A stretch of DNA of 39,514 bases from the NCBI GenBank assembly GCA_017504545.1, contig JAFVRA010000084.1, positions 1-39,514 on the forward strand, in the 5' to 3' direction. The position numbers and the translations under genes are program-made. This document shows, in pieces, positions 4,030-28,026 of this stretch (its first letter is position 1; each line of letters opens with the position of its first letter). Under the pieces are notes generated by a model, which made no database searches, was not told the origin of the DNA, and saw only the letters and a program-made list of their open reading frames with translations. Origin of the DNA: Clostridia bacterium (lineage in GTDB: Bacteria > Bacillota > Clostridia > Oscillospirales > CAG-272).

Positions 4030-4220
4030 AACAATGAACCTCCGTAAAATGAAATTTAGATCTTTGCAACTTGCAAAAACTTGTTCTTATTATACTTTAT
4101 TGTTAAATGAATGTCAATAGGTTGTTAAAAAAATTTTTTAAGCTTTTTTATGATTTGTGTTTTTTGTGCAAAGAGGATATAAATATGTCCCCTTTTCTAC
4201 AACTATTTGCCGAATTCACA

Positions 4221-4249
4221 TTGACAAAATATTTTGGTTTTGGTATAAT
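4221..4249 (+). promoter_or_regulatory. Sigma-A type promoter for the 4322-7086 operon
   Basis: TTGACA (4221-4226), 17-nt spacer, TGgTATAAT (TATAAT at 4244-4249). It lies inside the longer 4157 ORF, which argues for the 4322 start. Confidence 0.65.
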
Positions 4250-4321
4250 AATAATGAATTTTTATCGATATTTGCTGAACTTATTGAAAAAATTACACTT
4301 ACATCCATACGAGGAAATTTT

Positions 4322-5707: not shown

Positions 5708-5724
5708 TATTCAAGGAGAATTTT

Positions 5725-7086
5725 ATGAAAAAACATATCGCTATTATTCTCACCTTGGCAACCCTTTTCGTCGTTTTTTCTTCTTGTGATCAATTTGTCG
5801 GCAAAGACGACATTTCTTCAAGCGCCACGGAAAACGACACGAAGGATACTTTTAAAACAAATACAACGATTGACGTAACCGATCAGATGATATCCTCGAT
5901 AAATATGTACGAGGCTATGCCTGAGGCACAGCTGGTTCAGGTCGGAGACACGCTTACGGACAAAGAGTATAATTACTTCTATTTTAAGCTCGGTACTGTG
6001 AAGAACGTTCCCATTCACTATGATACCGCGTACAACCACAACGGAATTGCGACCACGGAGTATGCTTGGACAAAAACCGCAGTATCCGAAAACATATATT
6101 CCGAGGTTATCTCCAATAGCATAAGTTCCGCTACGACCGCAGAATCAACGTTGTCCTTCTCCAACGAAACTTCCGCATCTCTGAACGCATCTTACGGTGG
6201 AATAGGCGCAAACGTGGGAATAAAAGCCTCCCAGAATCTCTCAACCTCTTTGGGAAGCACCACAAAAGTTTCTTATGAAAAAACCTTTAATCAATCGGTA
6301 AACAATACCATCAAAAACAGTCAGTCGCGCGTTGTTACTATCAGCAAGGATGCCCCTGTCGGATATTATCGATACGTGATTTTCGGCGATTTTGATATTT
6401 ACGTAATGCTGATGTGCAAAATATCCGATCAAAGCATTGATTATACTTACGTTTCCACCTTGAAAGAAGACAGCCTTTTCGACACCTTTACATACAGCAA
6501 AGAAAATGATTTTTCTGACAGTAATACAGACGAATTAAAGTTACAGCTGACGCAAGAAATGCTTAGCTCTCTTGCAATAGATTTCTTTGACTCCGATGTC
6601 AAAAACTATGTCAAGGATTATGTTTTTGCTTCAATGAGAGCCTTGGAAAAAGAGGGAAAATTCAAGGTTACATCCAAAGGATACTACGGCTTGGCTCAGA
6701 TAGAGCTGGCAGATGAGATGAATCTCTCCTCCCTGATCGAATATATGACCCCCGAATACACGTTCACATTTAAGGTCGCTGTAAACGCTGAGTCTCGAAA
6801 TGTTTTCGGGCACGAGGTCGAGGGTTATCGCGAGGTTCATCTTTACGATCGTCGTAACAGGTCGTTTGATCGAGAGATAAGCGCAGAGACTGCAAAAAAT
6901 GAATACGGTTGGCTGGGTGAGATGGTATGGGATGAAGACTCAAGTTTATTCGAGGATAGCTTTACTATCAGCGGAGACAAATGCAAGGACTACATGTACA
7001 TTTATTACGATGCTCACGGTAATGATGACAACACTTGGTATCTCAAATACATAAGCGTAGACGTTTCGGTAACAAAAGCAAATTAA
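5725..7086 (+). CDS. Hypothetical lipoprotein
   Basis: The ATG at 5725 lies 6 nt after an AAGGAGA RBS. The signal peptide MKKHIAIILTLATLFVVFSSC carries a lipobox Cys. The mature 430-aa protein is Ser/Thr/Asn-rich and matches no family I recognise. Its start is 18 nt after the stop of the upstream gene. Confidence 0.8.
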   Translation: MKKHIAIILTLATLFVVFSSCDQFVGKDDISSSATENDTKDTFKTNTTIDVTDQMISSINMYEAMPEAQLVQVGDTLTDKEYNYFYFKLGTVKNVPIHYDTAYNHNGIATTEYAWTKTAVSENIYSEVISNSISSATTAESTLSFSNETSASLNASYGGIGANVGIKASQNLSTSLGSTTKVSYEKTFNQSVNNTIKNSQSRVVTISKDAPVGYYRYVIFGDFDIYVMLMCKISDQSIDYTYVSTLKEDSLFDTFTYSKENDFSDSNTDELKLQLTQEMLSSLAIDFFDSDVKNYVKDYVFASMRALEKEGKFKVTSKGYYGLAQIELADEMNLSSLIEYMTPEYTFTFKVAVNAESRNVFGHEVEGYREVHLYDRRNRSFDREISAETAKNEYGWLGEMVWDEDSSLFEDSFTISGDKCKDYMYIYYDAHGNDDNTWYLKYISVDVSVTKAN

Positions 7087-7095
7087 ATATAAACA

Positions 7096-7138
7096 AAGAT
7101 CCGCGGACACGATGCGTGTCCGCGGATCTTGTTTTTTT
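7096..7138. terminator. Bidirectional rho-independent terminator
   Basis: 15-bp perfect stem aagatccgcggacac/gtgtccgcggatctt (7096-7110 / 7116-7130) with loop gatgc, followed by a T7 run. An A-rich stretch lies on the left. It sits between convergent genes. Confidence 0.85.
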
Positions 7139-7140
7139 AT

Positions 7141-7770
7141 TTATGCGTTTTCCTTTATCATTATAATATCCTTAGCGTAAGGAAGCTCGGATATCCAATC
7201 GCAGAGGGTGTGCCACTCGGCGAGCTTGTGTGTTCTTCTTGCATAGTAGATATTGATGAGATTCTCGTAGTTGAGAGTTACCGTTCTCATCTGATTGTAG
7301 CTTGAGGGAAGAAGCTGTATCATATTGTGCCAAGCCTGCTTATTGGTCTTATCCTCGCAGAACTTCACTCTTTCGCCCTCAAGATACGCGATGATCGCGT
7401 CGAGCGCCGCAAGTCCGCCCTCGTCGAGTCTGTCGCAGGAGAAGTCTGCTCTCTCAAAGGATTTAGCGTGTATCTTATGCATCGTGCTGCAGGAGTTTGC
7501 GACCGTGCCTACCTTGTATGTATCAAACTCCTTCCACCAATAAAGCGGAGCGGTAATATCTACCGACACGAAGATCTGGCGCAGGAATTTGCGGTGATCG
7601 CTTCCCGCCGAGGCAAGACGCTTTGCAAGTCCGAGATCGTTCTCGCCGAGGACGTAGTTTCCCTCCTCGTCGTAGGCGCTGTCCATTCTGTCCCAGCTGT
7701 TAAGAGGGTTTCTCGCGCCTCTTATAGCGTTTTCAAGGTTCATCACCGAGGTTCTCTCTATCTTGATCAT
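7141..7770 (-). CDS. ThyX-fold (flavin-dependent thymidylate synthase-like) protein, divergent and lacking the RHR motif
   Basis: The 209-aa product aligns by eye with ThyX along its length. AIRGARNPL corresponds to the ThyX N-terminal helix. VSVDITAPLYWWKEFDTYKVGTVANSCSTMH corresponds to the ThyX block F.F.I.G.SR....Q..RHR..S...S.RY. RRTHKLAEW corresponds to the R..SHAQ.E block. A GGAGGA RBS is present. Confidence 0.6.
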   Translation of the reverse strand: MIKIERTSVMNLENAIRGARNPLNSWDRMDSAYDEEGNYVLGENDLGLAKRLASAGSDHRKFLRQIFVSVDITAPLYWWKEFDTYKVGTVANSCSTMHKIHAKSFERADFSCDRLDEGGLAALDAIIAYLEGERVKFCEDKTNKQAWHNMIQLLPSSYNQMRTVTLNYENLINIYYARRTHKLAEWHTLCDWISELPYAKDIIMIKENA

Positions 7771-12920: not shown

Positions 12921-12995
12921 GCTGGTGTGGCTCAATGGCAGAGCAGCTGATTTGTAATCAGCAGGTTGTTGGTTCGACTCCGATCACCAGCTCCA
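12921..12995 (+). tRNA. tRNA-Thr (anticodon UGU)
   Basis: The cloverleaf folds by hand. Acceptor stem is GCTGGTG/CACCAGC and D stem is gctc/gagc. The anticodon stem gctga/tcagc carries loop ttTGTaa. The T arm is gttgg-ttcgact-ccgat, and the CCA end is encoded. Confidence 0.9.
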
Positions 12996-13025
12996 AGGCT
13001 TCGCCTTGCGGAGCCTATTAAATAA

Positions 13026-13110
13026 GGGGGATTTCCCGAGCGGCCAAAGGGGGCAGACTGTAAATCTGTTGTCACTGACTTCGGTGGTCCGAATCCACCA
13101 TCCCCCACCA
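13026..13110 (+). tRNA. tRNA-Tyr (anticodon GUA), class II with long variable arm
   Basis: Acceptor stem GGGGGAT/ATCCCCC and anticodon loop ctGTAaa. There is a 13-nt variable arm and a T arm ggtgg-tccgaat-ccacc. The CCA end is encoded. Confidence 0.9.
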
Positions 13111-13459: not shown

Positions 13460-13488
13460 TTGCAAGCTTTAGAATTCTGTGCTATAAT
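13460..13488 (+). promoter_or_regulatory. Sigma-A type promoter for the beta-helix protein gene
   Basis: TTGCAA (13460-13465), 17-nt spacer, TGcTATAAT (TATAAT at 13483-13488). It lies ~50 nt upstream of the ATG at 13541. Confidence 0.65.
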
Positions 13489-13540
13489 AAATCGAGGCGT
13501 ATTCGCGTGCGCCTTATTCAGAATATTAAAGGCGGACGAT

Positions 13541-15178
13541 ATGACGACCTATTATATTGACCACAAAAACGGAAACGACGCGCTTGACGGACGCTCTCCC
13601 CAAAGCGCAAGAAAAAACTATACCGACCTCTCGCTAAAAAAAGGCGACGAGGTGCTTTTCAAGCGCGGTAGCTTCTATCGTGACAAGCTCCACGCGCTTC
13701 CCTACGTCTCCTACGGCGCTTACGGGGATGGCGAGGCTCCTACCTTCTGCGGCTCAACAGACGTCAGCAGAGAGGAAAATTGGGCGCTTACAGAGCGCGA
13801 GAACGTCTGGAAATGCAGGAAGCTGATTCCCGGAGACGTGGGAAATATGCTCCTTGGTGACGGTCTTTACGGCACGTTCCGTTGGGAGCTTGACGAGCTT
13901 GCCTCTGACGGCGACTTTTACGACGCGAGAAGCATCCTTGGCGACTGCTTCAAGCAGGGCAACGAGCCCTCGCTCTACCTCTACTCGCAAGTAAATCCTG
14001 CCGCAAAATACCCCCATATCGAGGCTATCTCCTACAACACTCGTCAGCTTGTCAAGCTTAGCGACGGTATGAGCTTTGACTCATTGCGCTTTATCAACAG
14101 CGGCGTTCACGGAATGGCGGGCAATGGAGATCACATCACGGTCAGAAATTGCAGCTTTGAGAATATCGGCGGATGTGCCTGGAGCCACGAGCTGAGAATA
14201 AGATTCGGAAACGGATTTGAGATCTGGGAGAGAGGCGACGATATACTTATAGAAAACTGCTCGTTTAAGAGCGTTTACGATTCCTGCATAACTCATCAAG
14301 GTCCGGGGGAAGATACGAAGCCTGCCGAGAGATTTATCTGCCGCGGATGCCACTTTGACACCTACGGAATGGCGGCGTTTGAATACAGAGACAAGCTACC
14401 TATCGACTCCGCGTTTATCGGCAACACCTGCACGGACGCAGGCTGCGGATTTGCGATGCTCGGTGAGGATCTGCCGCGAAGAAGCGAGATCTGGCCTCAG
14501 CCTATGGGACACCATATATTTATGTGGCGAATTGACCACGCTACAGACGGCGGCAGACTTGAGATACGCGACAACCACTTCGGCACGGCCCCCGTGGGTG
14601 CGGCGATATATTCCATAATCTCGCCCGAAGCAGAAGCGCAAGTGACACTTGAGAACAACCTCTACACCGAAAACGCCACGCTTCTCAACCGTTTTGGCGG
14701 CGAGAATTTCTGCGATCTTGACACCTACAAGGCAAGGAGCGGTCAGGACAAGAACAGCAGGTACATCAAGTCAAAGAAGAAGATCAAGGGACTCGTATCG
14801 ACGATAATTCTCGGTGTTTGTCTGCTTATTGCGCTATTTTTCACCTCAAGGCTTCTGTCGGTAGATCTGCAAGAGTCGCTCAAGCAGATGTCGCAGTCGG
14901 CAAGCAACTCCGCGGGAAGCCTTGAAAATGCGGGCGAGATGGAATTGGTCTATCTCCTTGCCGCAAGCATAGGCGTGATTGCAGTAACCATCGCGGCTTA
15001 TATTATCGCCATTATGACGCTCACCTCCTGCGCCGTTCCGCTTATTTTCTCAATAAGGAATATAAAGGCAGAAAACAAGGCAATAAAGATCATCAATATA
15101 ATATACACAGTTCTCTTTTCTTCGGGAGTTCTTCTCTCGTTGATAAAGATGCTGCTATTTTATCTCGGTATTGGATAA
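13541..15178 (+). CDS. Right-handed parallel beta-helix repeat protein with a C-terminal multi-pass membrane anchor
   Basis: The ATG at 13541 follows an AAAGGCGGA RBS. The N-terminus YYIDHKNGNDALDGRSPQSARK is typical of pectate-lyase-fold proteins. PbH1-like repeats are present (VRNCSFENIGG, IENCSFKSVYDSCITH, CRGCHFDTYG, IGNTCTDAGCG). The last ~130 aa hold 3-4 hydrophobic helices preceded by KSKKKIKG. Confidence 0.75.
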   Translation: MTTYYIDHKNGNDALDGRSPQSARKNYTDLSLKKGDEVLFKRGSFYRDKLHALPYVSYGAYGDGEAPTFCGSTDVSREENWALTERENVWKCRKLIPGDVGNMLLGDGLYGTFRWELDELASDGDFYDARSILGDCFKQGNEPSLYLYSQVNPAAKYPHIEAISYNTRQLVKLSDGMSFDSLRFINSGVHGMAGNGDHITVRNCSFENIGGCAWSHELRIRFGNGFEIWERGDDILIENCSFKSVYDSCITHQGPGEDTKPAERFICRGCHFDTYGMAAFEYRDKLPIDSAFIGNTCTDAGCGFAMLGEDLPRRSEIWPQPMGHHIFMWRIDHATDGGRLEIRDNHFGTAPVGAAIYSIISPEAEAQVTLENNLYTENATLLNRFGGENFCDLDTYKARSGQDKNSRYIKSKKKIKGLVSTIILGVCLLIALFFTSRLLSVDLQESLKQMSQSASNSAGSLENAGEMELVYLLAASIGVIAVTIAAYIIAIMTLTSCAVPLIFSIRNIKAENKAIKIINIIYTVLFSSGVLLSLIKMLLFYLGIG

Positions 15179-15222
15179 AAAAAGCTCGGAGCATTATGGT
15201 GCGTGTTCTTAAGGACAGTTTT
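15178..15222 (+). repeat. Left arm of a ~45-nt inverted repeat (partner at 17265-17307)
   Basis: The arm reads AAAAAAGCTCGGAGC - 9-11 variable nt - CGTGTTCTTAAGGACAGTTTT. The reverse complement of 17265-17307 matches the 15-nt and 21-nt blocks exactly. The arm starts at the stop codon of the upstream gene. Confidence 0.85.
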
Positions 15223-15249
15223 AAGAATACGTTACCTACCGACAGGAAA

Positions 15250-15285
15250 AGGACGAAGAATTGTTAAAATTCCTCGTCCTTTTTT
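15250..15285 (+). terminator. Rho-independent terminator
   Basis: 12-bp stem aggacgaagaat/attcctcgtcct (one A-C mismatch) with a 7-nt loop and a T6 run. An A-run lies on the left. Confidence 0.65.
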
Positions 15286-15325
15286 CTTGACAAGCACTGC
15301 ATTTGTGGACACAAATGTCTTTATG

Positions 15326-15354
15326 TAGACTAATTCACAAATTTATGATATAAT
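15326..15354 (+). promoter_or_regulatory. Candidate promoter of the sigma-factor gene
   Basis: TAGACT (4/6 match to the -35 consensus), 17-nt spacer, TGaTATAAT (TATAAT at 15349-15354). It lies ~80 nt upstream of the ATG at 15437. Confidence 0.5.
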
Positions 15355-15436
15355 ATTTGCGAGAAACATTAACCAAATCATTTTTCTTTCACTATTAATG
15401 CAGAAGCTTCTAAAATGGCGGAAAGGAGGTACGTAG

Positions 15437-16993
15437 ATGACCTCAATCGAATTGAACGAAAAGATAACGGAAGTATCAAAAACAATCTTCTCCTACTGTA
15501 TGGCTAAAACACCCACACGAGAAGAAGCCGAAGACTTATCACAAGAAATTCTGTATGAGTTGATAAAGTCGGCTGAAAATATTCGCGATGACAAGGCATT
15601 TTACGCTTTCATGTGGGGAGTTGCAGGAAACGTTTATAAGCAGTGGTATCGAAAAAAGTTAAAAAATAACACCTGCGAATTGACGGAAGATATTCCCTCG
15701 GACAATGAGTTCGCAGAAGATGATAATAGCGATATATATCTGCTTCGCCGTGAGCTTACTTTGCTATCCGAGAAATATCGAAAAGCAACGATTATGTATT
15801 ACATTGACGAACGTTCTTGCTCTGAAATATCATCTGCGCTTGCCATTTCCGAAAGCATGGTAAAATACCTGCTGTTCAAATCACGAAAAATATTGAAAGA
15901 AGGAATGAGTATGGAAAGAAATCTTGGAGAACTCAGCTATAATCCTAAAACATTGATCCCGATGTATAACGGTGAGGGGCCAAACCATTTTTGGAATTTT
16001 ATGCAAAGCAAAATCAAACAAAATATTGTAAGTGCTTGTTATAACGATGCACTTACGGTTCAGCAAATCAGCCTTGAGACCGGCATTCCGCTCCCGTATC
16101 TTGACAATGAAATCAAGGAACTTGAAAACAGAAAAATTATTATCAAAGATGGTAATTATTATAAAGCAAATGTAATTATTATTACAGAGGAATGTACCGA
16201 CGAAATTGATCGTGCTGTTGCAAAATATCACGACCAAATTGCCGATAAAATTGAATTATTTATCAAAGAAAAGATGCAGTGGTATAAGGAAATCGGTTTT
16301 ACCGGTTGTGATTTTTCAGAGAACAGCTTGCGTTGGCAAATGTCTGCAATTCTGTTTAGAATTATTTTTGGCACATATTCATGGCCGAATGCAGAAGTGC
16401 CTAAAACCGCATGGGGTGAGCGGGCTTTTCTTTGGTGTCTTGAAAAGATGAATACGAATCATACCTTTAGTTTTTGCGATCAAGACAGTAAAAAACAAGA
16501 CCGAATGTATTTCTTTGATTATTGGAAAAATGGCAATGGAAAAGGAAATCATCACGACTTTTATGGAAATGATCGTTATATCAACATCTTTTGTGATATC
16601 TGTCGATGTAATAAGACGACATTTAGCGAATACGATCTTGAAGCAGTTGCTGAAATGATCAAAAAAGGATATATAATCAAAGAAAACGATGAATATCTGA
16701 CTTCCGTTGTAACTTATACAGTAGAGCAACATAAAACGATTCTTTGTGTGATGGAAGATTTTATATCAGCTGAACTTGCATCAATTATTAAAGAAATGGA
16801 TAAGACAGCAGCACAAATTTTAGGTTCACACACACCAAAACATTTGCAAGACCAAGTTAAAGGTATTGCCTCTATGGATAGGTTTGGTAATGCAGTTTGT
16901 ATTCCCGCAATAATTCTTATTGAGAGACAATTCTTGAGTACCGCTTGGCATCCTCTTGAAATGCCTACGACTTATGTTGTTTTGAATAAGTAA
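15437..16993 (+). CDS. Sigma-70 family (ECF-like) RNA polymerase sigma factor with a ~350-aa C-terminal extension
   Basis: Region 2-like sequence: EEAEDLSQEILYELIKS...FYAFMWGVAGNVYKQWYRKK. Region 4-like HTH: LSEKYRKATIMYYIDERSCSEISSALAISESMVKYLLFKSRKILKEG. A soluble extension follows, with winged-helix-like stretches and no TM helix. An AAGGAGG RBS is present. The gene is markedly AT-rich. Confidence 0.8.
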   Translation: MTSIELNEKITEVSKTIFSYCMAKTPTREEAEDLSQEILYELIKSAENIRDDKAFYAFMWGVAGNVYKQWYRKKLKNNTCELTEDIPSDNEFAEDDNSDIYLLRRELTLLSEKYRKATIMYYIDERSCSEISSALAISESMVKYLLFKSRKILKEGMSMERNLGELSYNPKTLIPMYNGEGPNHFWNFMQSKIKQNIVSACYNDALTVQQISLETGIPLPYLDNEIKELENRKIIIKDGNYYKANVIIITEECTDEIDRAVAKYHDQIADKIELFIKEKMQWYKEIGFTGCDFSENSLRWQMSAILFRIIFGTYSWPNAEVPKTAWGERAFLWCLEKMNTNHTFSFCDQDSKKQDRMYFFDYWKNGNGKGNHHDFYGNDRYINIFCDICRCNKTTFSEYDLEAVAEMIKKGYIIKENDEYLTSVVTYTVEQHKTILCVMEDFISAELASIIKEMDKTAAQILGSHTPKHLQDQVKGIASMDRFGNAVCIPAIILIERQFLSTAWHPLEMPTTYVVLNK

Positions 16994-16999
16994 AAATTC

Positions 17000-17046
17000 A
17001 CCGCCGAGAGCAACCGTTTGATCACTCTCGGCGGTATGTTATTTTA
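17000..17046 (+). terminator. Terminator of the sigma-factor gene
   Basis: 11-bp stem accgccgagag/ctctcggcggt (17000-17010 / 17025-17035) with a 14-nt loop, followed by a T-rich tail. Confidence 0.55.
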
Positions 17047-18521: not shown

Positions 18522-18618
18522 TTTTTACACCTCCCTATGGACTTAAGACCGCAAGCATCGAACAAAAAATTTACCTGCGGTAAGGAGACGGACAATCAAA
18601 TGTCCGTACCGAATAAAG

Positions 18619-18647
18619 ATTATATCATATTTTAGTCTGTCTGTCAA
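18619..18647 (-). promoter_or_regulatory. Consensus sigma-A promoter of the rpsF-ssb-rpsR operon
   Basis: On the minus strand: TTGACA (18642-18647), 17-nt spacer, TGaTATAAT (TATAAT at 18619-18624). This leaves a ~90-nt structured leader before the rpsF ATG. Confidence 0.8.
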
Positions 18648-18702
18648 GCCTTTTTTTGAGATTTTTTCGGAATTAATGATTTTCTTCTATATAATATAAA
18701 TA

Positions 18703-18730
18703 TCCCTCGGCAAGTAAGCTTGCCGAGGGA
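18703..18730 (-). terminator. Terminator of the giant envelope-protein gene
   Basis: 12-bp perfect stem tccctcggcaag/cttgccgaggga with loop taag, 24 nt after the stop. A T/A-rich tail follows on the minus strand. Confidence 0.7.
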
Positions 18731-18753
18731 TAGGGTGTTTATAAAATTTTGTA

Positions 18754-21700
18754 TCAGCCGCGCTTTTCTGCGCTTCCGCCTGCCTTCTCTATCTTCTCTC
18801 TTGCCGCCGCGCTGAATTTATCCGCGCTTACCTCAAGAGGCTTATTAAGCTCTCCTCTGCCAAGGACTGCCAATCTGCCTGCGTTCTTGGGTATCATCTG
18901 CTTTTCCTTGAGAGAATCGATATTTACGGCGTCTCCCGCCTCAAATTGCTTGTCGAGCAGACCTACGTTGATCTCTGCCCTTCTCGCTCTCTTGCACTTT
19001 ACTTTCTTAGGCTTTTCAAGCACTATCGGAGCAGGAATGATCTCGGGCTCAGGTTCGGGCTCGGGTTCAGGCTCGGGCTCGGATTCGGGCTCAGGCTCGG
19101 GCTCGGGTTCAGGCTCGGGCTCGGGCTCGGGTTCAGGCTCGGGCTCAGGCTCACCCTCAGGTTCGGGCGCAGGGATCTCTTCAAGCTCAAGCTCGGGTGT
19201 GAAATCGTACGCGCTCTCAGCAACAGGCTCTGCCTCTTCCTTGGCAGGCTTATTTCTGAGCAGCTCGATCACGAGATAAGCAATATAAACAGCCATCGCA
19301 ACGTCTGCGATACCGACCATTACTGTCATCGTCCACATAGACACGGGCATTGCGCCGAGTGCCGCAAGTGCGGTCGCACGCTTTCTGCGAACAAGCACGA
19401 ATATCGTAATAGCCTCAAGTATGCCTATCACGCAAAGCGCGATAAGTATCGGGCGAAGCATATCAACGCAAGCGCCGTCCTCCTGAGAGAGCGCATCGTT
19501 GTTGAGATCGGCAAATCCGTCAAGGCAGTTGTCTCTGATAGACTTGACCTCACCCACTGCCATCGCACCCGCGATGTCTGTCTCGGCAAGAAGAAGCTCT
19601 GCCGCAAGCTTGTCCTTGATGCTCTTTCTGCTTGCATCGTCAAGATATACGAAGGCGTCGACCGTATCGTCTATCTTTTTCTTCTCACTCTGTATCTCTG
19701 CCACAGCCGCTTCCTTGGCGTTGTAGAGATCCATAGTAACGGCCTTATCGGAAACGCCCTCAAGCACGCTCATTCCGTCCTCAGTCGCCTTTGCGATCTC
19801 CTCGCTGCTGAGAGCTTCGTTTATCTTGCCCTTAGCCGCCTCTACTGCCGCCTCAGCCTCTGATCGAAGCGCTGCTCTTTCTTCATCAGTAAGATATTCA
19901 AGTGCATCTATCGCCGCAAATATCTCCTCTTTTTTGGTTTCAAGAGAATCCTCGGCAACGTTACCTTGCTCTTTTCTTGCCTCGCTGTCACCAAGCTCGA
20001 CCTTTGACTTCTTGCCGTCGAGCACCTTTTCACCGTCTCTTACTACGGTGGCTATATCGCTACTGTTCTTTACACCGTCAAGTTCCTTAGCGATAGTTTC
20101 AAGAGAAGAATCAGCCTCATTCTTCAAGGCTTCCTTAGCCGCGTCGTCAAGGTAGGTAGCGTTCTTTATCGCCTCAAGAACCTCAGCGTGCTTCTTCTCA
20201 AGCGCCTTTCTTGCCTCCTCGATCTGCTCTGCCTTTGCAACGTCGTCAGCAGCCTTTGCTTCGGTAAGGATACCGTTTACCAGGCTTGTACCGCCGTCGC
20301 TCTCCGCCTTTGCGGCGTCGGCAGTCTTTGCCGCGTCTATCTTTTCCTGAGTTGCCTTACGCACCTCCTCGATCTTATCGATAGCCGCCTGCTTTTCCTC
20401 TTCGCCAAGGTATCCGAGATTGCCTATCTCCTCATTCGCGCCATTTGCCGCGCCGTGTGCGGCATCTGCGGCAGTTGCCTTGGCGGTGTTAAGATCCAGT
20501 CGGTCAATAAAGTCTTCTTTAAGCTTGTCTATGTCTGTGCCCGTTGCAGTGGTAAGGGCCTCGATCACGTCGGCCAATGCGTTTTTCATCTCTTCACGGT
20601 AAGGAGCTCTCTGCGGGTTGGTAAGATTTTTGAGAGAGTCAACGGCATCCAGCGCCTTTACACTCTCGTTTTTTAGATCCTTCATTACCGCTACCTTTTT
20701 TTCAGCCTCGTCATTTATCTTTCCGAGTGCCTTTTCAAATCTCTCAAGTGCGGCAGTCTTGCCCGTCTCGTCAGAAGCAGCTCTGATATCCTTAACGCTC
20801 TCGTCAAGAAGCGCGTCAAGCTTATCGCTAAGCACCTGCTTCATCTCGTCGGTGAGCTGGGTGTAAGCATTTATTTTATCCTTCTGTGCTTTTGCGTCAT
20901 CTATAGTGTCCTGTACGCAGAATTCCTTTTCCAAGTCAAATATAGCCTTATCGGCGATCGCCCCGATCTTTGCAGGATCGGTAGCCGCCGCTATATCCTC
21001 GTGTGCCTTTTTGACGATAGCGTCTATCTCGCTCTTGACTCCGGGAGTCGCATTTTCTTCCCTCTCGGCAAGCTTTACGTTTATACAGGAGATCGCTTCC
21101 TTGCGATCAAGTGCCGTGATAGCGTCACTTGCGATCTTTTCATCGTCCTCCGCTCCGGCTACGATAGCCTTGCAAGCATCGGTAGCGATATTCTCAAGCT
21201 CTTTCTTATCAATATTAGAGAAATCCTTGTAGATCTCCTCTGCAGCTATCGCCTCGTATCTGTCAAGCACCGCATCCGCAAGTCTTGCTCTGTTCACGAT
21301 ATCTGCGGCATCCTCAATAAGCGTGCCGATATTCTCATATCTGAGATCGTCTATCTTATCCTTGAGCTCGTCGGCGTAAGCGTCTCTGAGCTCGCCGTCA
21401 CCGAGTAAGCCGTCTATCTCCTGATTTGCGACCTCGCCGTAAAGCTCGGTGAGCTTCTGAGCGGCGAGAATGATGTTAGCATCAGCCTTTGCCTTACTAT
21501 TGAGCGCATTGAGGGCGTTTATGGCGTCCTCGATAGGCTTCTTATCGGCAATAGTGATCTCTGCGGGAGTCTTACCGAGAATGTCGGCGTAGATAGCCTT
21601 GAACTCCTCTATCTCAAGCTCTGCCATCGCTTCCTCAAAGCGTCCGTCAAGAGTTTCGGGAGTTGCTTTTTCAATAAGATCGTCGCCCTTATCATGAAGC

Positions 21701-22953
21701 AGGTCTATGTTGCTGACGTCCGCAGTCTCGCCCTTCTGTGCCTTAATAGCGGCAACGGTATCAACGTACTGCTCGTAAAGGTCGGTGCGGCGCTTTGCCT
21801 TGTTGACCTCGTGATCAACGTCGTCGAGAGCGGATCCGTCTACGTTACCCTCCGCGCCGTTGTACTCCTTCTCAAGATCAGCGAGCCATTCGTCGTCCTT
21901 ACAGTGCTTGGTGTTTATGTAGTCAAGTATCTCGTCCTTTGCCTCTGCGCGATAAAGCTCGTCGGCGTAGTTTTCAAGCAGCTTGTCAATATCGGCGATC
22001 TCGGTGCTTGCCGCCGCCTCTACCGCGCTCTCTGCCTGTACTTTAAGCTTCTCGTAGTATTCCTTGCCGTACTTGCCGTCATCTGCGGAAAGCGCGTCCG
22101 CGCTCGTACAGAATGCGTCGAGAAGTGCCTTGTTCATATCGGTTATTTCAGTTGTGGTATCAGCGTCTATCTTTGCGGCGGTGTCCGCATAGAGCTGATT
22201 GTCGGCATAGCCGTCAACACCGTAGAAGATATCAAATATACCCTTGAGCTCGCCGAGAGCCTTGTCCTGATTTCTCTGTATAGCGACAGCCTTAGCCGTT
22301 CTCGCAAGTATCTCCTCGTATTCGGGAGCGGCGAGAGAATTGTCAGTGCAGCTCTTGATCTCGGTCTTTGCGCCGTCAACGAGTGCCTTTACCGCATTTG
22401 AATCACCCTCTGCAAGCAGAGCGTCGAGCTTCTCGGAATAGATGCAAACGAGCATCTTGGCGCAAAGTCCGCCGTTACCGTAAAGCGTGGAAACGCTTTC
22501 CTTGAGCACGTTGTAATCGGTTGCGGAGGCTATCGCGCTGTCGATCTCCTTGAAGACATCGTCAACTCTCTGCTTAGCCTCTCCCGAGAAGACGTGCGAA
22601 TAATATATCCACGCGACCTCGTTGATAGCCATACCCTGTGTGTAGTAAAGGTTGATAACATACTCCGTGGCAGTCTGCTCAAGCTCCGCGTCCGTAAGGC
22701 CGTTAAGCTTCAAGTAATATATCGCAACGTGATTATTCGTAAGTCTTCCGGGCTCAAGCGCAGATTCTCCGTTTTCACCCATGACTCCAAGTATCTCATT
22801 CGTCCTCGTGGTCAGAAGCGCCAGATTGTCCTCTCTTATCTCCTCGGGAGTACGAGCAGACACGGTTATCGAAAGCGCTATCATAGCCGTAAGCACGGCG
22901 AGCGTCATCGCGAATATTCTCAAACAAGTCAAAGTGCCTCGCTTCATAAGCAT
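18754..22953 (-). CDS. Giant membrane-anchored surface protein: signal peptide, DUF1542-like helical repeats, TM block, (Glu-Pro)n linker, C-terminal uL15-like domain
   Basis: Single 1399-aa ORF. The GGAGG RBS favours the third codon (ATG at 22947) as the start. The N-terminus [23 protein letters not shown] is a signal peptide. The A/E/K/D-rich region repeats the pattern K..A...I......L(T/D)..E.......I......A...I..A, as in DUF1542 repeats. The TM block is at 19258-19461. The last 84 aa align with the uL15 C-terminus ([34 protein letters not shown] versus the uL15 pattern ILGNGEL.KKLTVKA.KFS.SA.E.IEAAGG.AE). Confidence 0.85.
19042..19173 (-). repeat. In-frame hexanucleotide (GGBTCR)n repeat encoding a (Glu-Pro)~21 linker
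   Basis: 44 consecutive codons on the minus strand read [14 protein letters not shown]...[14 protein letters not shown]. Confidence 0.9.
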
Positions 22954-23022: not shown

Positions 23023-23051
23023 ATTATACACGTTTTTTCGCCAGTAGTCAA
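23023..23051 (-). promoter_or_regulatory. Candidate promoter of the giant envelope-protein gene
   Basis: On the minus strand: TTGACT (23046-23051), 17-nt spacer, TATAAT (23023-23028). It lies ~70 nt upstream of the start codon. Confidence 0.6.
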
Positions 23052-25869: not shown

Positions 25870-28026
25870 ATGAACATGAAAAAGATCTTACTTCTTCTTC
25901 TCACCCTCGCGCTTGTACTTAGCATTTTTGCTTCGTGCAATACCTCCACCGACAACGAAGGCACAGACGACAAGAACACCCCCACCGACGCTCCTACGGA
26001 TAAGCCCACAGAAAAGCCCACAGAAAAGCCTACCGAAAAGCCTACGGAGCAGCCTACCGAAAAGCCTACCGACGACGGTAAGGATGACGGAAACGAAGAC
26101 GAATACGATACTATCACCATCGCAGAGGCACTTGAGCTCTGCGGCGAGCCCGGAAATCTTACTACTGAAAGATACTACATCCGCGCTACTATCATTTCTA
26201 TTGACAACGCACAGTTCGGACAGATGACCATTGGCGACGAGACAGGTACTATCCCCGTTTACGGCACTTACAGCGCTGACGGTGAGATCAACTACTCCGC
26301 AATGGAGGACAAGCCCTACAAGGGTGACGAGGTCCTTCTCTACTGCACTCTCCAGAACTACAACGGAACTAAGGAAGTAAAGAGCGCTTGGCTCATCTCC
26401 TTCAAGCACGTTGAAATTGAGATCGACGAGTCTCAGTACACCGATATGAGCATTGCTGAAGCGCGTGAAGCAGAGGTCGGCACAAAGATAAAGCTCGACG
26501 GTGTCGTTGCGCGCATCACTTATGCAAACGGCATGGTTCCTATGGGCGTATATCTCGTTGATGATACTCAGTCTATCTACGTTTACGACGGCGATCTCGC
26601 TCAGAGAGTTAACATCGGCAACAAGGTTACCGTACTCGGCTCCAAGACCTATTGGATACTCGACTCCGAGAAGTCCAACGCGCAGAAGTTCGGCTACAAG
26701 GGCTGCTGTCAGCTTGAGGACGTGACCGTTCTTGACATCAAAACAGAAGGTAAGCCTGCTAACATCTCTTGGGTACAGGAAAGCACCGTAAAGGATATTC
26801 TCGACACCCCCGTTACCGAGAACGTAACCTCCTCTATCTTCAAGGTAAACGCTCTTGTTAAGAAGGTTCCCGGAAGCGGATTTACTAACTACTACTTCTT
26901 TGACCTTGACGGAGAGACCGGCTCTTACGCTTACTCTCAGTGCAACGGCAACGACTTTGCTTGGCTCGACGAGTTCGACGGTAAGATCTGCAAAGTCTAC
27001 CTCTCTCCCCTTAACGCTAAGTCCACCTCTTCCTCCTGCTACTTCAGATTTGTTCCCATAGCAGTTTTTGACGAGGGCTTTAAGTTCGATACCACGAAGG
27101 CTGCTCAGCACGCGGTTGAATACATCGGAGTTACTCAGTTCCTCTCTTCCTACACCGGCAATCCCGCTAAGGAGCTTGCAACAAGCGTTTCCTCCGAGCT
27201 TCTCGGATTCGAGAACGCTACCCTTTCTTACACCTCGAGCGACGAGAACGTAGTTTACTTTACCACCGAGAACGGCAAGGTGATCTTCAACTGCAAGGAT
27301 GCAGGCAAGGCTACCGTTACCGTTAAGGGCTCGTTTGGTGGTGTAGACTACTCTGAGGATATTGAGATCACAGTTCTTCCCAACGCTACCTACGAGAGCA
27401 TCACCATTGAAGAGGCTAAGAGCAAGGAAGTTGGCGAGAAGGTCATCATCAAGGGTATCGTTGGTCCCTCTCTCGTAAACAAGAGCGGCTTCTACCTCTT
27501 TGACGGAACAGGCATGATAGCTATAACTCTTGCAGACGCTTCTGCCTTTAGCGAGCTTGAGATCGGCTACGAGGTAGTTCTTGAGGGTACGAGAGACTGC
27601 TTTAAGGATGCGGATAAGACTCACGCAGGTCAGCTTGCTGTCTCCAACTGCACTATCGTTGCTAACTACTACGGCGAGCACGATTACCACACCTTTGACT
27701 TTATCACCGACAAGGATATTAAGTTCATCTACGATCTCGACGAGAACGAGCAGCACTCCGACAAGGTTTACGTAGTTAAGGCTACCGTAACCCTTGAGGA
27801 AACTAATTACTACACCAACATCTTCCTTTCGGGCAACGGCGTAAACCTCAGACTCTACTGCTCCAGCGCAAGCCAGTACTCCTTCCTCAAAGCTTTCGCA
27901 GGTCAGGAGGTAACGGTTGAGGTCGCTCCTTGTAACTGGAACGACAAGACCTACTACACAGGTTGTGTTCTCTCTGTTACTACTGCAGACGGAACTGTAG
28001 TTCTCAACGAATTGAATTTCCAGTAA
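25870..28026 (+). CDS. Lipoprotein with a (K/Q)PTE repeat linker, three OB-fold-like modules and a Big_2-like Ig domain
   Basis: The signal peptide KKILLLLLTLALVLSIFASC ends in a lipobox. Alternative ATGs lie at 25870 and 25876. A PTDKPTEKPTEKPTEKPTEQPTEKPT linker follows. Three similar modules start ITIAEALEL..., MSIAEAREAEVG... and ITIEEAKSKEVG.... The stretch TLSYTSSDENVVYF...GKATVTVKG...IEITVLP resembles bacterial Ig-like group 2. Confidence 0.8.
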   Translation: MNMKKILLLLLTLALVLSIFASCNTSTDNEGTDDKNTPTDAPTDKPTEKPTEKPTEKPTEQPTEKPTDDGKDDGNEDEYDTITIAEALELCGEPGNLTTERYYIRATIISIDNAQFGQMTIGDETGTIPVYGTYSADGEINYSAMEDKPYKGDEVLLYCTLQNYNGTKEVKSAWLISFKHVEIEIDESQYTDMSIAEAREAEVGTKIKLDGVVARITYANGMVPMGVYLVDDTQSIYVYDGDLAQRVNIGNKVTVLGSKTYWILDSEKSNAQKFGYKGCCQLEDVTVLDIKTEGKPANISWVQESTVKDILDTPVTENVTSSIFKVNALVKKVPGSGFTNYYFFDLDGETGSYAYSQCNGNDFAWLDEFDGKICKVYLSPLNAKSTSSSCYFRFVPIAVFDEGFKFDTTKAAQHAVEYIGVTQFLSSYTGNPAKELATSVSSELLGFENATLSYTSSDENVVYFTTENGKVIFNCKDAGKATVTVKGSFGGVDYSEDIEITVLPNATYESITIEEAKSKEVGEKVIIKGIVGPSLVNKSGFYLFDGTGMIAITLADASAFSELEIGYEVVLEGTRDCFKDADKTHAGQLAVSNCTIVANYYGEHDYHTFDFITDKDIKFIYDLDENEQHSDKVYVVKATVTLEETNYYTNIFLSGNGVNLRLYCSSASQYSFLKAFAGQEVTVEVAPCNWNDKTYYTGCVLSVTTADGTVVLNELNFQ
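25981..26073 (+). repeat. 12-nt period coding repeat (PT[DE][KQA])n
   Basis: aagcccacagaa / aagcctaccgaa units repeat about 6-7 times within the lipoprotein linker. Confidence 0.8.

What the first reader, a model, noticed from the sequence alone, without database searches (positions are those of the whole stretch)
18754..22953. Giant envelope protein ending in a ribosomal protein uL15 C-terminal domain, encoded next to rpsF-ssb-rpsR
Seen directly in the sequence:
- One uninterrupted 1399-aa ORF starts with a signal peptide and ~1150 aa of A/E/K/D-rich repeats. The repeats follow the DUF1542-like pattern found in Gram-positive surface fibrils of the Ebh/FmtB type.
- A hydrophobic block follows at 19258-19461. 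It has one clear TM helix, then RRKR, then a 39-residue hydrophobic stretch.
- A ~44-residue Glu-Pro linker comes next.
- The final 84 residues are [84 protein letters not shown]. They align column by column with the C-terminal globular half of bacterial uL15: ..VVNL..L..F.EGTEVTPE.L...G.I.K...GVKILGNGEL.KKLTVKA.KFS.SA.E.IEAAGG.AEV.
- The Gly/Arg-rich N-terminal extension of true uL15 is absent.

Inference: if the 39-residue stretch forms a helical hairpin, the basic uL15-like module is cytoplasmic. One polypeptide would then connect a long cell-surface fibre to a module that normally contacts 23S rRNA. I do not know of a characterised membrane protein with this architecture. Possible roles are ribosome or rRNA tethering at the membrane, or co-option of the fold as a generic RNA- or protein-binding module. 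The gene lies immediately upstream of the rpsF-ssb-rpsR operon, but it has its own terminator and that operon has its own promoter.
Basis: partly seen in the sequence, partly recalled or inferred. Interest (0 to 1): 0.78.

Follow-up and report, generated by a model that had tools for sequence, protein, structure and literature searches.

The report
Surface fibre with cytoplasmic uL15-like tail
A real, conserved gene in an uncultured Clostridia bacterium encodes a giant cell-surface fibre whose inner end is a copy of the globular half of ribosomal protein uL15 on a long acidic leash, and it belongs to a large uncharacterised family that databases mislabel as a ribosomal protein.

Summary
ORF 18754..22953 (-) encodes 1399 aa: a signal peptide, an all-helical ectodomain, a hydrophobic block, an 83-aa Glu/Pro linker and a C-terminal uL15 domain. 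The tail matches Pfam PF00828 at 58.9 bits (cutoff 21.5). Its AF2 pLDDT is about 95 and it lies about 2 Å rmsd from uL15 in solved ribosomes. uL15's N-terminal extension is absent, so this is not a ribosomal protein.

It is neither a chimera nor a one-off. An exhaustive profile search found 115 cluster representatives at E<=1e-30 with the same C-terminal module. Ectodomains vary between members or are nearly absent. Members with a signal peptide and a single TM, or only an N-terminal TM, place the tail in the cytoplasm. For this protein the same topology is probable, not proven.

The tail is the best-conserved region. Four of 12 independent lineages carry the gene beside a different translation operon (rough binomial P about 1e-4).

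No paper or solved structure describes the module. The closest known architecture is S. aureus Ebh. The function is inferred: most likely a cytoplasmic docking domain for ribosome, rRNA or another partner. Only about 40% of the ectodomain is DUF1542-like.

The parts
23023..23051 (-). Own sigma-70-type promoter of the giant gene (TTGACT-17-TATAAT)
   Evidence: Consensus scan, 11 of 12 matches; sequence read. A consensus match only.
18754..22953 (-). Whole CDS, 1399 aa including the stop codon; the likelier start is the second ATG at 22947 (1397 aa)
   Evidence: ORF list. GGAGG lies 9 nt before the second ATG. Relative P0001 starts at MKRG.
22855..22953 (-). Signal peptide, aa 1-33 (KR n-region, hydrophobic core, VSA then R)
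   Evidence: Hydropathy peak at aa 6-34. An N-terminal hydrophobic signal is present in 106 of 109 full-length family members. The cleavage site is inferred from the sequence.
20989..22854 (-). N-terminal ectodomain body, aa 34-655. Helix-type composition, conserved within the subfamily, no known domain.
   Evidence: No Pfam or PDB hit. 38-49% identical to P0003/4/6/9.
19489..20988 (-). Six DUF1542-type helical units, aa 656-1155 (signature YL[DT]xxxK at aa 699, 776, 848, 934, 1020, 1103)
   Evidence: Pfam DUF1542 at 38.4 bits against a cutoff of 24.3. Motif spacing. AF2 pLDDT 94.8, alternating long and short helices. Foldseek top hits are BibA, EbhA and an S. aureus adhesin domain.
19390..19452 (-). 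TM1, aa 1168-1188, preceded by the conserved ED(x)ACVDxL(R/T)P juxtamembrane motif
   Evidence: Hydropathy. AF2 helix 2-34 of the module. Alignment A1.
19378..19389 (-). RRKR stop-transfer cluster, aa 1189-1192 (cytoplasmic face)
   Evidence: Sequence. Family mean net charge after TM1 is +3.2.
19258..19377 (-). 40-residue hydrophobic stretch, aa 1193-1232: a shortened middle segment ([13 protein letters not shown]) plus the last TM, flanked by RNK
   Evidence: Homologues have a fuller middle TM, with 3 segments detectable in 54 of 109.
19009..19257 (-). Acidic Glu/Pro linker, aa 1233-1315, predicted disordered; contains the DNA tandem repeat at 19042..19173
   Evidence: 30 E + 26 P, net charge -27. 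AF2 pLDDT below 50. TRF period 12/18. Family linkers have a median of 88 aa, range 50-365, and are acidic.
18757..19008 (-). Basic patch ([10 protein letters not shown]) plus the uL15 C-terminal-type alpha/beta domain, aa 1316-1399 (Pfam domain aa 1327-1396 = 18766..18975)
   Evidence: PF00828. TIGR01071 profile positions 67-143 only. PDB uL15 chains. AF2 pLDDT ~95. Foldseek rmsd ~2 Å over 78-79 columns, uL15 chains only. 100% identical to P0001.
18701..18732 (-). Intrinsic-terminator-like hairpin (14 bp, 8 GC) 22 nt after the stop codon

Best explanation
Shown:
- The gene encodes a giant type-I-like envelope protein. A Sec signal peptide exports a ~1130-aa all-helical fibre whose membrane-proximal ~500 aa are Ebh/BibA-like DUF1542 helical units.
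- A hydrophobic block anchors the protein in the membrane.
- The chain ends in an 83-aa disordered Glu/Pro leash carrying a basic patch and a compact alpha/beta domain. That domain derives from the C-terminal globular half of ribosomal protein uL15.
- The protein is one member of a large, uncharacterised, modular Clostridia family. Its invariant core is 'membrane anchor, long acidic leash, C-terminal uL15-like domain'. Its outer part is interchangeable.

Inferred, probable:
- The tail is cytoplasmic.

Inferred, the committed mechanism:
- The uL15-like domain is a docking module. It reaches tens of nanometres into the cytoplasm on its acidic leash.
- There it binds a conserved component of the translation apparatus, either 23S rRNA/50S or a 50S precursor or partner that normally recognises uL15's globular domain.
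- This ties the envelope anchor, and here a surface fibre, to ribosomes at the membrane.
- It cannot replace uL15, because it lacks the rRNA-penetrating N-terminal extension.
For: Homology and fold of the tail:
- PF00828 scores 58.9 bits against a cutoff of 21.5.
- uL15 chains in the PDB match with E down to 4e-11.
- AF2 gives pLDDT ~95.
- Foldseek finds only uL15 chains, at ~2 Å rmsd and 38-44% identity.

Real and conserved:
- Nine full-length relatives at 28-85% identity all carry PF00828 + DUF1542.
- The exhaustive profile search gives 115 representatives at E<=1e-30 and 1833 at E<=1e-10. In nearly all of the 150 best hits listed the module sits at the extreme C-terminus.

Modularity:
- The same tail follows Listeria-Bacteroides repeats, MBG and Ig-like ectodomains.
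- It follows a 14-aa ectodomain in L009.
- In L014 the protein has only an N-terminal TM and everything else is cytoplasmic.
- An apparently soluble form exists in L005.

Topology:
- P0256, P0259 and P0241 have a signal peptide plus a single TM.
- 54 of 109 full-length members have three detectable hydrophobic segments.
- Net charge averages +3.2 after TM1, and 3.65 K+R lie within 15 aa after the last TM.

Constraint on the tail:
- It is 100% identical to P0001, against 85% for the whole protein.
- It is 42-56% identical to distant relatives, against 16-44% for the DUF1542 region.

Link to translation:
- The gene sits beside rpsF-ssb-rpsR in the window and in orthologue L022.
- It sits beside rpsL-rpsG-fusA-tuf in L005-7.
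- It sits beside infC-rpmI-rplT in L009.
- It sits beside rplK-rplA-rplJ-rplL in L014.
- That is 4 of 12 independent lineages, each next to a different operon. The rough binomial P is 3e-5 to 3e-4.

Charge:
- The tail domains are slightly more basic than true uL15 C-domains, +3.35 against +1.7.
Against: - No binding data exist, and rRNA-contact residues could not be mapped with these tools.
- In real uL15 most of the rRNA anchoring is attributed to the N-terminal extension, which is missing (established knowledge of 50S structures, not tested here).
- The uL15 site on mature ribosomes is occupied.
- In this particular protein the middle hydrophobic segment is only ~13 aa. AF2 gives two long helices with low confidence in between, so a 2-TM topology with an external tail is not excluded.
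- Eight of 12 lineages show no translation-gene neighbour. The sample is small and not random.
- Between near-identical genomic backgrounds (RpsF 97%, RpsR 99%) the tail is only 56% identical. It therefore evolves far faster than a true ribosomal component.
Confidence: 0.4

Rival explanations
1. Passive cytoplasmic stopper or anchor. The uL15-derived domain was recruited only because it is a small, stable, fast-folding, basic domain. Together with the acidic leash it fixes the N-out/C-in topology and stops the fibre being pulled out of the membrane. It has no specific ligand.
For: - S. aureus Ebh is anchored by TM and cytoplasmic domains in just this way (PMC6548404).
- The tail is always at the extreme C-terminus, after the anchor.
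- It diverges quickly between close genomes, 56% identity against 97-99% for the neighbouring ribosomal proteins.
Against: - The tail is the best-conserved part of these proteins.
- It is kept in members with almost no ectodomain to anchor (L009), in a nearly all-cytoplasmic member (L014) and in an apparently soluble one (L005).
- A 50-365-aa leash is unnecessary for a plug.
- This reading does not explain the translation-operon neighbours.
Confidence: 0.22
2. Docking module for a non-ribosomal partner. The fold has been re-purposed to bind another cytoplasmic component, such as nucleoid DNA, a secretion, division or cytoskeletal protein, or another copy of itself. It would then serve localisation, clustering or outside-in signalling of the envelope proteins.
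For: - The main clade has its own conserved surface signature that differs from true uL15: LKEKxL, KILARG, KMIxLTGG.
- 144 of 149 fusion tails form one clade separate from true uL15.
- Many members add a conserved VEEAxxLxSD-type helix (56 of 155) or an extra ~200-aa cytoplasmic domain of unknown type.
Against: - No candidate partner gene is conserved next to the family.
- The residues invariant in the family (N, K, L-R-G, F-S, A, G-G) are largely those also conserved in uL15.
- The neighbourhood bias points to translation rather than elsewhere.
Confidence: 0.25
3. Extracellular tail. The protein has two TM helices, so both ends are outside. The Glu/Pro stretch would be a wall-spanning spacer, and the uL15-like domain would be displayed on the surface, for example to bind extracellular nucleic acid.
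For: - AF2 models only two long helices in this protein. The middle segment is ~13 aa, because of an 11-residue deletion relative to homologues.
- Pro-rich acidic spacers are typical of wall- or periplasm-spanning regions. The weak TonB-like hit fits this (general knowledge).
Against: - Family members with a signal peptide plus one TM, or with only an N-terminal TM, must have the tail inside.
- Basic residues flank both ends of the 40-aa hydrophobic stretch, RRKR and RNKPAK.
- 54 of 109 members have three clear segments.
- A function conserved across the family cannot lie on opposite sides of the membrane.
Confidence: 0.08
4. Artefact, or a true ribosomal protein. The ORF is an assembly or frameshift chimera joining a surface-protein gene to rplO, or it is the organism's real uL15.
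For: - Public annotation calls relatives 'uL15 family ribosomal protein'.
- The Glu/Pro DNA repeat could in principle cause mis-assembly.
Against: - The same in-frame fusion is seen in more than 100 divergent clusters from independent assemblies.
- The gene has its own promoter and terminator.
- The TIGR01071 score is below the cutoff and only the C-terminal half matches.
- The gene is not in an spc operon; compare the genuine rplO in L015.
Confidence: 0.01

Closest known systems
Ribosomal protein uL15 (rplO; Pfam PF00828 Ribosomal_L27A, TIGR01071)
   Same: - The C-terminal ~75 residues are homologous to uL15's globular domain, 38-45% identical to Listeria and Mycobacterium uL15.
- They have the same alpha/beta fold, ~2 Å rmsd.
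- Motifs shared with uL15 include VN, V(K)xLGxGEL, KFSxxAxxKIExAGG.
   Different: - It lacks the Gly/Arg/Lys-rich N-terminal extension that threads into 23S rRNA, and scores below the TIGR01071 cutoff.
- It is the end of a 1399-aa membrane protein, not a ~146-aa soluble protein.
- It is not in the spc operon.
- Most fusion tails form a clade apart from true uL15, with their own signature.
Staphylococcus aureus Ebh (giant DUF1542/FIVAR-GA surface protein)
   Same: - Both have an N-terminal secretion signal, a very long helical-repeat ectodomain with DUF1542 units next to the membrane, and no LPXTG.
- Both are anchored by a C-terminal TM plus a cytoplasmic domain (PMC6548404).
- EbhA is among the top fold matches.
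   Different: - This protein is far smaller, 0.15 MDa against 1.1 MDa.
- It has no YSIRK signal and no significant FIVAR or GA modules.
- The first 620 aa of the ectodomain are unrelated.
- The cytoplasmic part is an acidic leash plus a uL15-derived domain. No such domain is reported for Ebh; this rests on my knowledge, and no Ebh sequence was compared here.
BibA (group B Streptococcus adhesin) N-terminal helical domain, PDB 6poo
   Same: It is the best structural match to the modelled DUF1542 region, an elongated antiparallel helical-bundle fibre (Foldseek E 7.8e-4).
   Different: - Sequence identity is only 13% and the TM-score is low.
- BibA is LPXTG wall-anchored (general knowledge) and has no cytoplasmic domain.
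Ribosome-binding C-terminal tails of membrane insertases (YidC2, Oxa1)
   Same: This is a functional analogy only: a membrane protein with a basic cytoplasmic C-terminal extension that docks ribosomes at the membrane (established knowledge, not tested here).
   Different: - Those tails are short basic helices that bind near the exit tunnel.
- Here the tail is a folded ribosomal-protein-derived domain on a long acidic leash.
- There is no sequence relationship and no evidence of binding.

Membership tests
Bacterial ribosomal protein uL15 (rplO, TIGR01071 equivalog) | Full-length match above the curated cutoff | tested here: not met
   49.7 bits against a cutoff of 77.95; only profile positions 67-143 of 144 are matched.
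Bacterial ribosomal protein uL15 (rplO, TIGR01071 equivalog) | Gly/Arg/Lys-rich N-terminal extension (~70 aa) preceding the globular domain | tested here: not met
   The residues before the domain are a Glu/Pro linker with net charge -27, plus a 10-aa basic patch. PDB alignments start at uL15 residue ~72-75.
Bacterial ribosomal protein uL15 (rplO, TIGR01071 equivalog) | Small soluble protein (~145 aa) encoded in the spc operon before secY | tested here: not met
   It is a 1399-aa membrane protein between nagA and rpsF. The genuine arrangement is seen in control locus L015.
Bacterial ribosomal protein uL15 (rplO, TIGR01071 equivalog) | Incorporation into the 50S subunit / binding to 23S rRNA | not testable with these tools
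   This needs biochemistry, or mapping of rRNA-contact residues from ribosome coordinates.
Pfam PF00828 Ribosomal_L27A domain (uL15/eL18 globular fold) | Profile match above the gathering score, covering the whole domain | tested here: met
   58.9 bits against 21.5, profile 1-72/72, aa 1327-1396.
Pfam PF00828 Ribosomal_L27A domain (uL15/eL18 globular fold) | Three-dimensional fold of the uL15 C-terminal domain | tested here: met
   AF2 pLDDT ~95. Foldseek probability 1.00, rmsd 1.4-2.2 Å over 75-79 columns, to many uL15 chains. This is a predicted model, not an experimental structure.
Ebh/FmtB-type giant Gram-positive surface proteins (DUF1542-containing) | N-terminal secretion signal | tested here: met
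   Basic n-region, hydrophobic core at aa 6-34 and a VSA motif. No YSIRK motif. No dedicated signal-peptide predictor was available.
Ebh/FmtB-type giant Gram-positive surface proteins (DUF1542-containing) | Tandem DUF1542 helical repeats | tested here: met
   PF07564 scores 38.4 bits against 24.3, in 3 stretches. Six signature units. The AF2 model is all-helical with pLDDT 94.8. EbhA and BibA are the top fold hits, though weak at E ~1e-3.
Ebh/FmtB-type giant Gram-positive surface proteins (DUF1542-containing) | FIVAR/GA modules making up most of the fibre | tested here: not met
   GA module scores 16.3 bits against a cutoff of 24. There is no FIVAR hit, and aa 35-655 have no Pfam hit.
Ebh/FmtB-type giant Gram-positive surface proteins (DUF1542-containing) | Anchoring by a C-terminal TM plus cytoplasmic domain (Ebh) or by LPXTG (FmtB) | tested here: met
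   A TM block at aa 1168-1232 followed by a 167-aa tail; no LPXTG. The Ebh anchoring mode is from PMC6548404.
Unnamed family: membrane anchor, acidic leash, C-terminal uL15-like domain (defined here) | PF00828-type domain at the extreme C-terminus, preceded by a long acidic low-complexity linker and a membrane anchor | tested here: met
   Window protein. The same layout appears in nearly all of the 150 best hits listed (115 representatives at E<=1e-30). The family tail signature LKEK is present in the window tail.
Unnamed family: membrane anchor, acidic leash, C-terminal uL15-like domain (defined here) | VEEAxxLxSD-type helix 25-40 aa before the tail | tested here: not met
   Present in 56 of 155 members but absent from the window protein and its closest relatives. 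It is therefore not a universal feature.
Unnamed family: membrane anchor, acidic leash, C-terminal uL15-like domain (defined here) | Cytoplasmic location of the tail | tested here: inconclusive
   Forced by the topology of single-TM and N-terminal-TM members and supported by flank charges. In the window protein the middle segment is short and AF2 is not decisive. No dedicated topology predictor or experiment was available.

The most novel reading that the evidence does not exclude
The module 'membrane anchor, acidic leash, uL15-derived domain' is a previously unrecognised class of bacterial membrane-to-ribosome (or pre-50S/rRNA) tether. It is widespread in uncultured Clostridia. It would physically couple surface fibres and other envelope anchors to the translation machinery. 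The recurrent placement of its genes beside different ribosomal-protein operons would reflect that functional link.
Probability: 0.25. Interest if true: 0.85.

Novelty: new variant of a known kind. Interest (0 to 1): 0.66.

Why it matters
Ribosomal-protein domains re-used outside the ribosome are rare and usually informative. Here half of a universal large-subunit protein has become the invariant cytoplasmic end of a large, modular family of envelope proteins in gut and rumen Clostridia.

If the tail binds ribosomes or rRNA, it would be a new way of organising translation at the membrane, or of wiring the cell surface to the cytoplasm.

If it does not, it is a clean case of a ribosomal fold being re-purposed.

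There is also a practical point. These genes are auto-annotated as 'uL15 family ribosomal protein' or '50S ribosomal protein L15' and are sometimes truncated by gene callers. That can corrupt marker-gene sets and completeness estimates for MAGs.

Tried and rejected
- **Exact look-up of the window protein.** Neither start codon found it in public assemblies. Context therefore had to come from relatives.
- **Tail-only word-indexed search.** It returned only ordinary uL15s and missed the fusion family. The exhaustive profile search was needed.
- **The search for related loci with alignments A1 and A2.** The whole protein found one GTDB locus. The closer alignment A4 found only 7 metagenome loci, one of them a genuine rplO. 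The neighbourhood census therefore stayed small.
- **Short 75-150-aa 'stand-alone' tail proteins.** I took them as possible soluble paralogues. At least P0270 is a mis-called end of a 1244-aa ORF, and P0274 and P0293 continue upstream across scaffold gaps. I do not claim tail-only genes exist.
- **Self-BLAST of the ectodomain.** It found no internal repeats. The repeats are visible only at profile or motif level.
- **PDB sequence searches.** The ectodomain and the extra cytoplasmic domain of P0233 found nothing significant.
- **Literature searches.** Searches for uL15 + DUF1542, PF00828/Ribosomal_L27A and 'uL15-like' or 'L15-like domain' found nothing relevant.
- **Rejected: assembly chimera, true rplO, LPXTG-anchored adhesin**.
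- **Rejected: functional coupling to rpsF-ssb-rpsR by co-transcription.** A terminator and a perfect promoter lie between them.

Full report

Yes. The window holds one uninterrupted ORF on the minus strand, 18754..22953, of 1399 aa. GGAGG lies 9 nt before the second ATG at 22947, and the closest relative starts there, so the true product is probably 1397 aa.

It consists of:
- TM1, [21 protein letters not shown];
- RRKR;
- a 40-residue hydrophobic stretch ending in RNK.

An 83-aa linker follows, with 30 Glu and 26 Pro and net charge -27. It is encoded by a 12/18-nt DNA repeat at 19042..19173.

The last 84 residues give a full-length match to Pfam PF00828 Ribosomal_L27A. The score is 58.9 bits in the whole protein and 66.5 bits alone, against a cutoff of 21.5. 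They match the bacterial rplO model TIGR01071 only over profile positions 67-143 of 144, and below its cutoff, 49.7 against 77.95 bits. They align to residues ~75-144 of uL15 chains in solved ribosomes, best E 4e-11.

The terminator hairpin (18701..18732), the perfect extended -10 promoter for rpsF (18647..18619) and the gene's own promoter (23051..23023) are all present as consensus matches. The downstream genes are rpsF, ssb and rpsR.

One correction is needed. The ectodomain is A/E/D/K-rich, but only aa ~670-1150 are DUF1542-like. That region has six units with a YL(D/T)xxxK signature at aa 699, 776, 848, 934, 1020 and 1103. Residues 35-655 have no Pfam or PDB match and no BLAST-level repeats.

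**2. Structure.**

An AlphaFold2 model of the C-terminal module (aa 1156-1399, six-sequence alignment) shows the following:
- the uL15-like tail at pLDDT ~95;
- two long helices, TM1 and the last TM;
- low confidence for RRKR plus [13 protein letters not shown];
- a disordered linker.

Foldseek against the PDB returns only uL15 chains. Probability is 1.00, rmsd 1.4-2.2 Å over 75-79 columns, and identity 38-44% to Listeria and Mycobacterium uL15. No non-ribosomal structure appears.

A model of aa 656-1162 is all-helical with pLDDT 94.8. Long helices of 37-53 aa alternate with short ones of 22-24 aa. Its best fold matches, though weak at E ~1e-3, are Gram-positive adhesin fibres: BibA, EbhA and an S. 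aureus adhesin-like domain.

**3. It is neither an artefact nor a one-off.**

A whole-protein search found nine full-length relatives of 1239-1482 aa at 28-85% identity. Every one carries both PF00828 and DUF1542.

I built a profile of the C-terminal module and scored it against 1.84 billion cluster representatives. It found 6009 proteins at E<=1e-3, 1833 at E<=1e-10 and 115 at E<=1e-30. Nearly all of the 150 best hits listed have the whole module at the extreme C-terminus of 1200-1650-aa proteins.

NCBI names two of them 'uL15 family ribosomal protein [Clostridia bacterium]'. Others are called '50S ribosomal protein L15' or 'hypothetical'. The only GTDB representative hit is an uncultured Clostridia MAG. 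The window itself looks like ordinary Clostridia chromosome, with gdh, serA/serC-like genes, trpS, transketolase, tRNAs, pflB/pflA and sbcCD-like genes.

**4. The tail module is the constant part and the outside is interchangeable.**

The same TM, acidic linker and PF00828 end is found in many settings:
- It follows Listeria-Bacteroides repeats (P0233, P0259), MBG domains (P0241, P0257) and an invasin-like Ig domain (P0235).
- In L009 the ectodomain is about 14 residues long.
- In L014 there is only an N-terminal TM, and the coiled coil, a ~370-aa hyper-acidic stretch and the tail are all cytoplasmic.
- In Firmicutes CAG:313 (L005-7) no TM is visible at all, although a scaffold gap interrupts the repeat.

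Some members insert a ~200-aa cytoplasmic domain of unknown type. About a third have a VEEAxxLxSD-like helix before the tail, which the window protein lacks.

Family linkers have a median of 88 aa (range 50-365) and are acidic, about -17 net charge per 100 aa.

Several 'short' database entries with this tail are gene-calling fragments. P0270 is the end of a 1244-aa ORF.

**5. Topology.**

Of 109 full-length members, 106 have an N-terminal hydrophobic signal. The C-terminal hydrophobic block breaks down as follows:
- 54 members show three detectable hydrophobic segments;
- 48 show two, with a weaker middle segment, like the window protein;
- three (P0256, P0259, P0241) have a single TM.

A signal peptide plus one TM, or an N-terminal TM alone, forces the tail into the cytoplasm. 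Mean net charge is -1.2 before TM1 and +3.2 after it, and 3.65 K+R lie within 15 aa after the last TM.

In the window protein and its orthologue P0003 an 11-residue deletion shortens the middle segment to ~13 aa.

I rate a cytoplasmic tail at about 0.8-0.9, mainly because a module conserved across the family cannot work on opposite sides of the membrane.

**6. Evolutionary behaviour.**

The tail is the best-kept region. Against P0001 it is 100% identical, compared with 85% overall. Against P0003, P0004, P0006, P0009 and P0010 it is 56, 51, 46, 42 and 44% identical. The DUF1542 region is 44, 32, 31, 32 and 16% identical to the same proteins.

In a neighbour-joining tree, 144 of 149 fusion tails form a clade separate from 51 true uL15 C-domains. 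That clade has its own signature: LKEKxL, KILARG, KMIxLTGG.

The window tail, with P0001, P0003, P0006 and P0179, sits at the base and keeps more uL15-like characters ([17 protein letters not shown]) along with the family's LKEK. The 'true' set was chosen by similarity to the window tail, so this placement should not be over-read.

The locus is hypervariable. In L022 the flanking RpsF, SSB, RpsR, ROK-like and NagA proteins are 97, 95, 99, 89 and 76% identical to the window's. The giant protein is only 41% identical. This is typical of exposed surface proteins under diversifying selection or allelic replacement.

**7. Gene neighbourhood.**

No partner gene is conserved across the family. However, in four of twelve independent lineages the gene lies next to, and on the same strand as, a translation operon. 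Each case involves a different operon:
- rpsF-ssb-rpsR, in the window and orthologue L022;
- rpsL-rpsG-fusA-tuf, in L005-7;
- infC-rpmI-rplT, in L009;
- rplK-rplA-rplJ-rplL, in L014, confirmed by Pfam.

With a naive 1-3% chance per gene, P(>=4/12) is 5e-6 to 3e-4. The sample is small and not random, so I treat this as a lead, not a proof. In the window the gene and rpsF are separate transcription units.

**8. What it most likely is and does.**

Shown: this is a Sec-exported, membrane-anchored helical surface fibre ending in a uL15-derived domain. It is one member of a large modular family.

Inferred: the tail is cytoplasmic.

Committed mechanism (confidence 0.4): the uL15-like domain is a docking module that reaches into the cytoplasm on its long acidic leash. 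It binds a component of the translation apparatus, either 23S rRNA/50S or a precursor or partner that recognises uL15's globular domain. This ties the envelope anchor to ribosomes at the membrane.

Evidence for:
- a retained uL15 fold and retained conserved uL15 positions;
- a slightly higher positive charge than true uL15 C-domains, +3.35 against +1.7;
- a long leash;
- retention of the tail in members with nothing to anchor;
- the operon neighbours.

Evidence against:
- the rRNA-threading extension is missing;
- the uL15 site is occupied on mature ribosomes;
- the tail diverges quickly;
- there are no binding data.

Rivals, with confidence:
- a passive cytoplasmic stopper like the Ebh TM/cytoplasmic anchor (0.22);
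- a re-purposed fold binding a non-ribosomal partner (0.25);
- an extracellular tail (0.08);
- an artefact or true rplO (0.01).

**9. Comparison with what is known.**

The protein is not a uL15. It fails the equivalog cutoff, lacks the N-terminal extension and is not in an spc operon (control L015). It does contain a bona fide PF00828 domain.

In overall plan it works like S. aureus Ebh: secretion signal, helical fibre with DUF1542 units next to the membrane, and a TM plus cytoplasmic anchor, with no LPXTG (PMC6548404). It lacks FIVAR and GA modules and YSIRK, and has a different cytoplasmic end.

Searches of 8.3 million papers and preprints found nothing on a uL15-like domain in membrane or surface proteins. 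No non-ribosomal structure with this fold was found in the PDB.

**10. Verdict.**

The architectural interpretation is supported, and it extends from one odd gene to a large, mis-annotated family. The functional interpretation remains open.

I file this as a new variant of a known kind: an Ebh-like membrane-anchored surface fibre with an unprecedented ribosomal-protein-derived cytoplasmic module. There is a 0.25 chance that the module defines a new kind of membrane-ribosome tether. Interest: 0.66.

Noticed in passing
window 18754-22953 compared with L022 7001-10720 and flanks: The giant protein is only 41% identical between two genomes whose flanking RpsF, SSB, RpsR, ROK-like and NagA proteins are 97, 95, 99, 89 and 76% identical, with the same synteny. 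This is a hypervariable surface-protein locus between conserved flanks, suggesting diversifying selection or allele replacement.
   Followed up: partly
L005 5444-6402; L009 5106-6354; L014 3277-6231: Small or mostly cytoplasmic family members sit directly beside rpsL-rpsG-fusA-tuf, infC-rpmI-rplT and rplKAJL respectively. One is apparently soluble at ~320 aa. One has SP/TM, a 14-aa ectodomain and a TM. One has only an N-terminal TM. In L005 and L009 scaffold gaps (N runs) fall inside the acidic repeats.
   Followed up: partly
L008 2590-6324 (P0270); proteins: Public gene calls often truncate these genes to a 75-150-aa 'ribosomal protein L15'. P0270 (107 aa) is the end of a 1244-aa ORF. PGAP and IMG name family members 'uL15 family ribosomal protein' or 'large subunit ribosomal protein L15', a likely source of false marker-gene hits in MAGs.
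   Followed up: partly
P0233, P0227, P0241, P0235, P0257; L013 3951-4628: An extra ~200-aa cytoplasmic domain lies between the anchor and the tail in a subset of the family (for example ...KTGLPLADTHYV...CFIYVYE...). It has no Pfam or PDB sequence match. A conserved VEEAxxLxSD-like helix precedes the tail in about a third of members.
   Followed up: partly
window 18522-18647: rpsF is preceded by a perfect TTGACA-17-TATAAT promoter with a TG extension, and by a ~100-nt leader containing two hairpins (ggacatttgattgtcc; ccgcagg...cttgcgg). No Rfam family reached its gathering score. It may be an S6:S18-type autoregulatory leader.
   Followed up: no
window 13460-16993: A low-GC stretch (35-37% at 15001-17000, against ~50% elsewhere) holds a 518-aa ORF and follows a 572-aa ORF. 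The 518-aa ORF has sigma-70 region 2 and region 4 at its N-terminus and a ~360-aa extension of unknown type. The 572-aa ORF has no Pfam hit. This may be an acquired island or a sigma/anti-sigma-like fusion.
   Followed up: no
window 25870-28026: A 718-aa ORF has only a PT-repeat hit near its N-terminus and no other domain. A 748-aa counterpart with no Pfam hit occupies the same place in L022. It may be another envelope protein.
   Followed up: no
window 4157-7770: Three ORFs of 516, 460 and 209 aa have no Pfam hit and lie in a lower-GC region (40-43%).
   Followed up: no
window 12921-13110: tRNA-Thr(TGT) and tRNA-Tyr(GTA) lie in tandem downstream of the transketolase and AP-endonuclease-like genes.
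   Followed up: no
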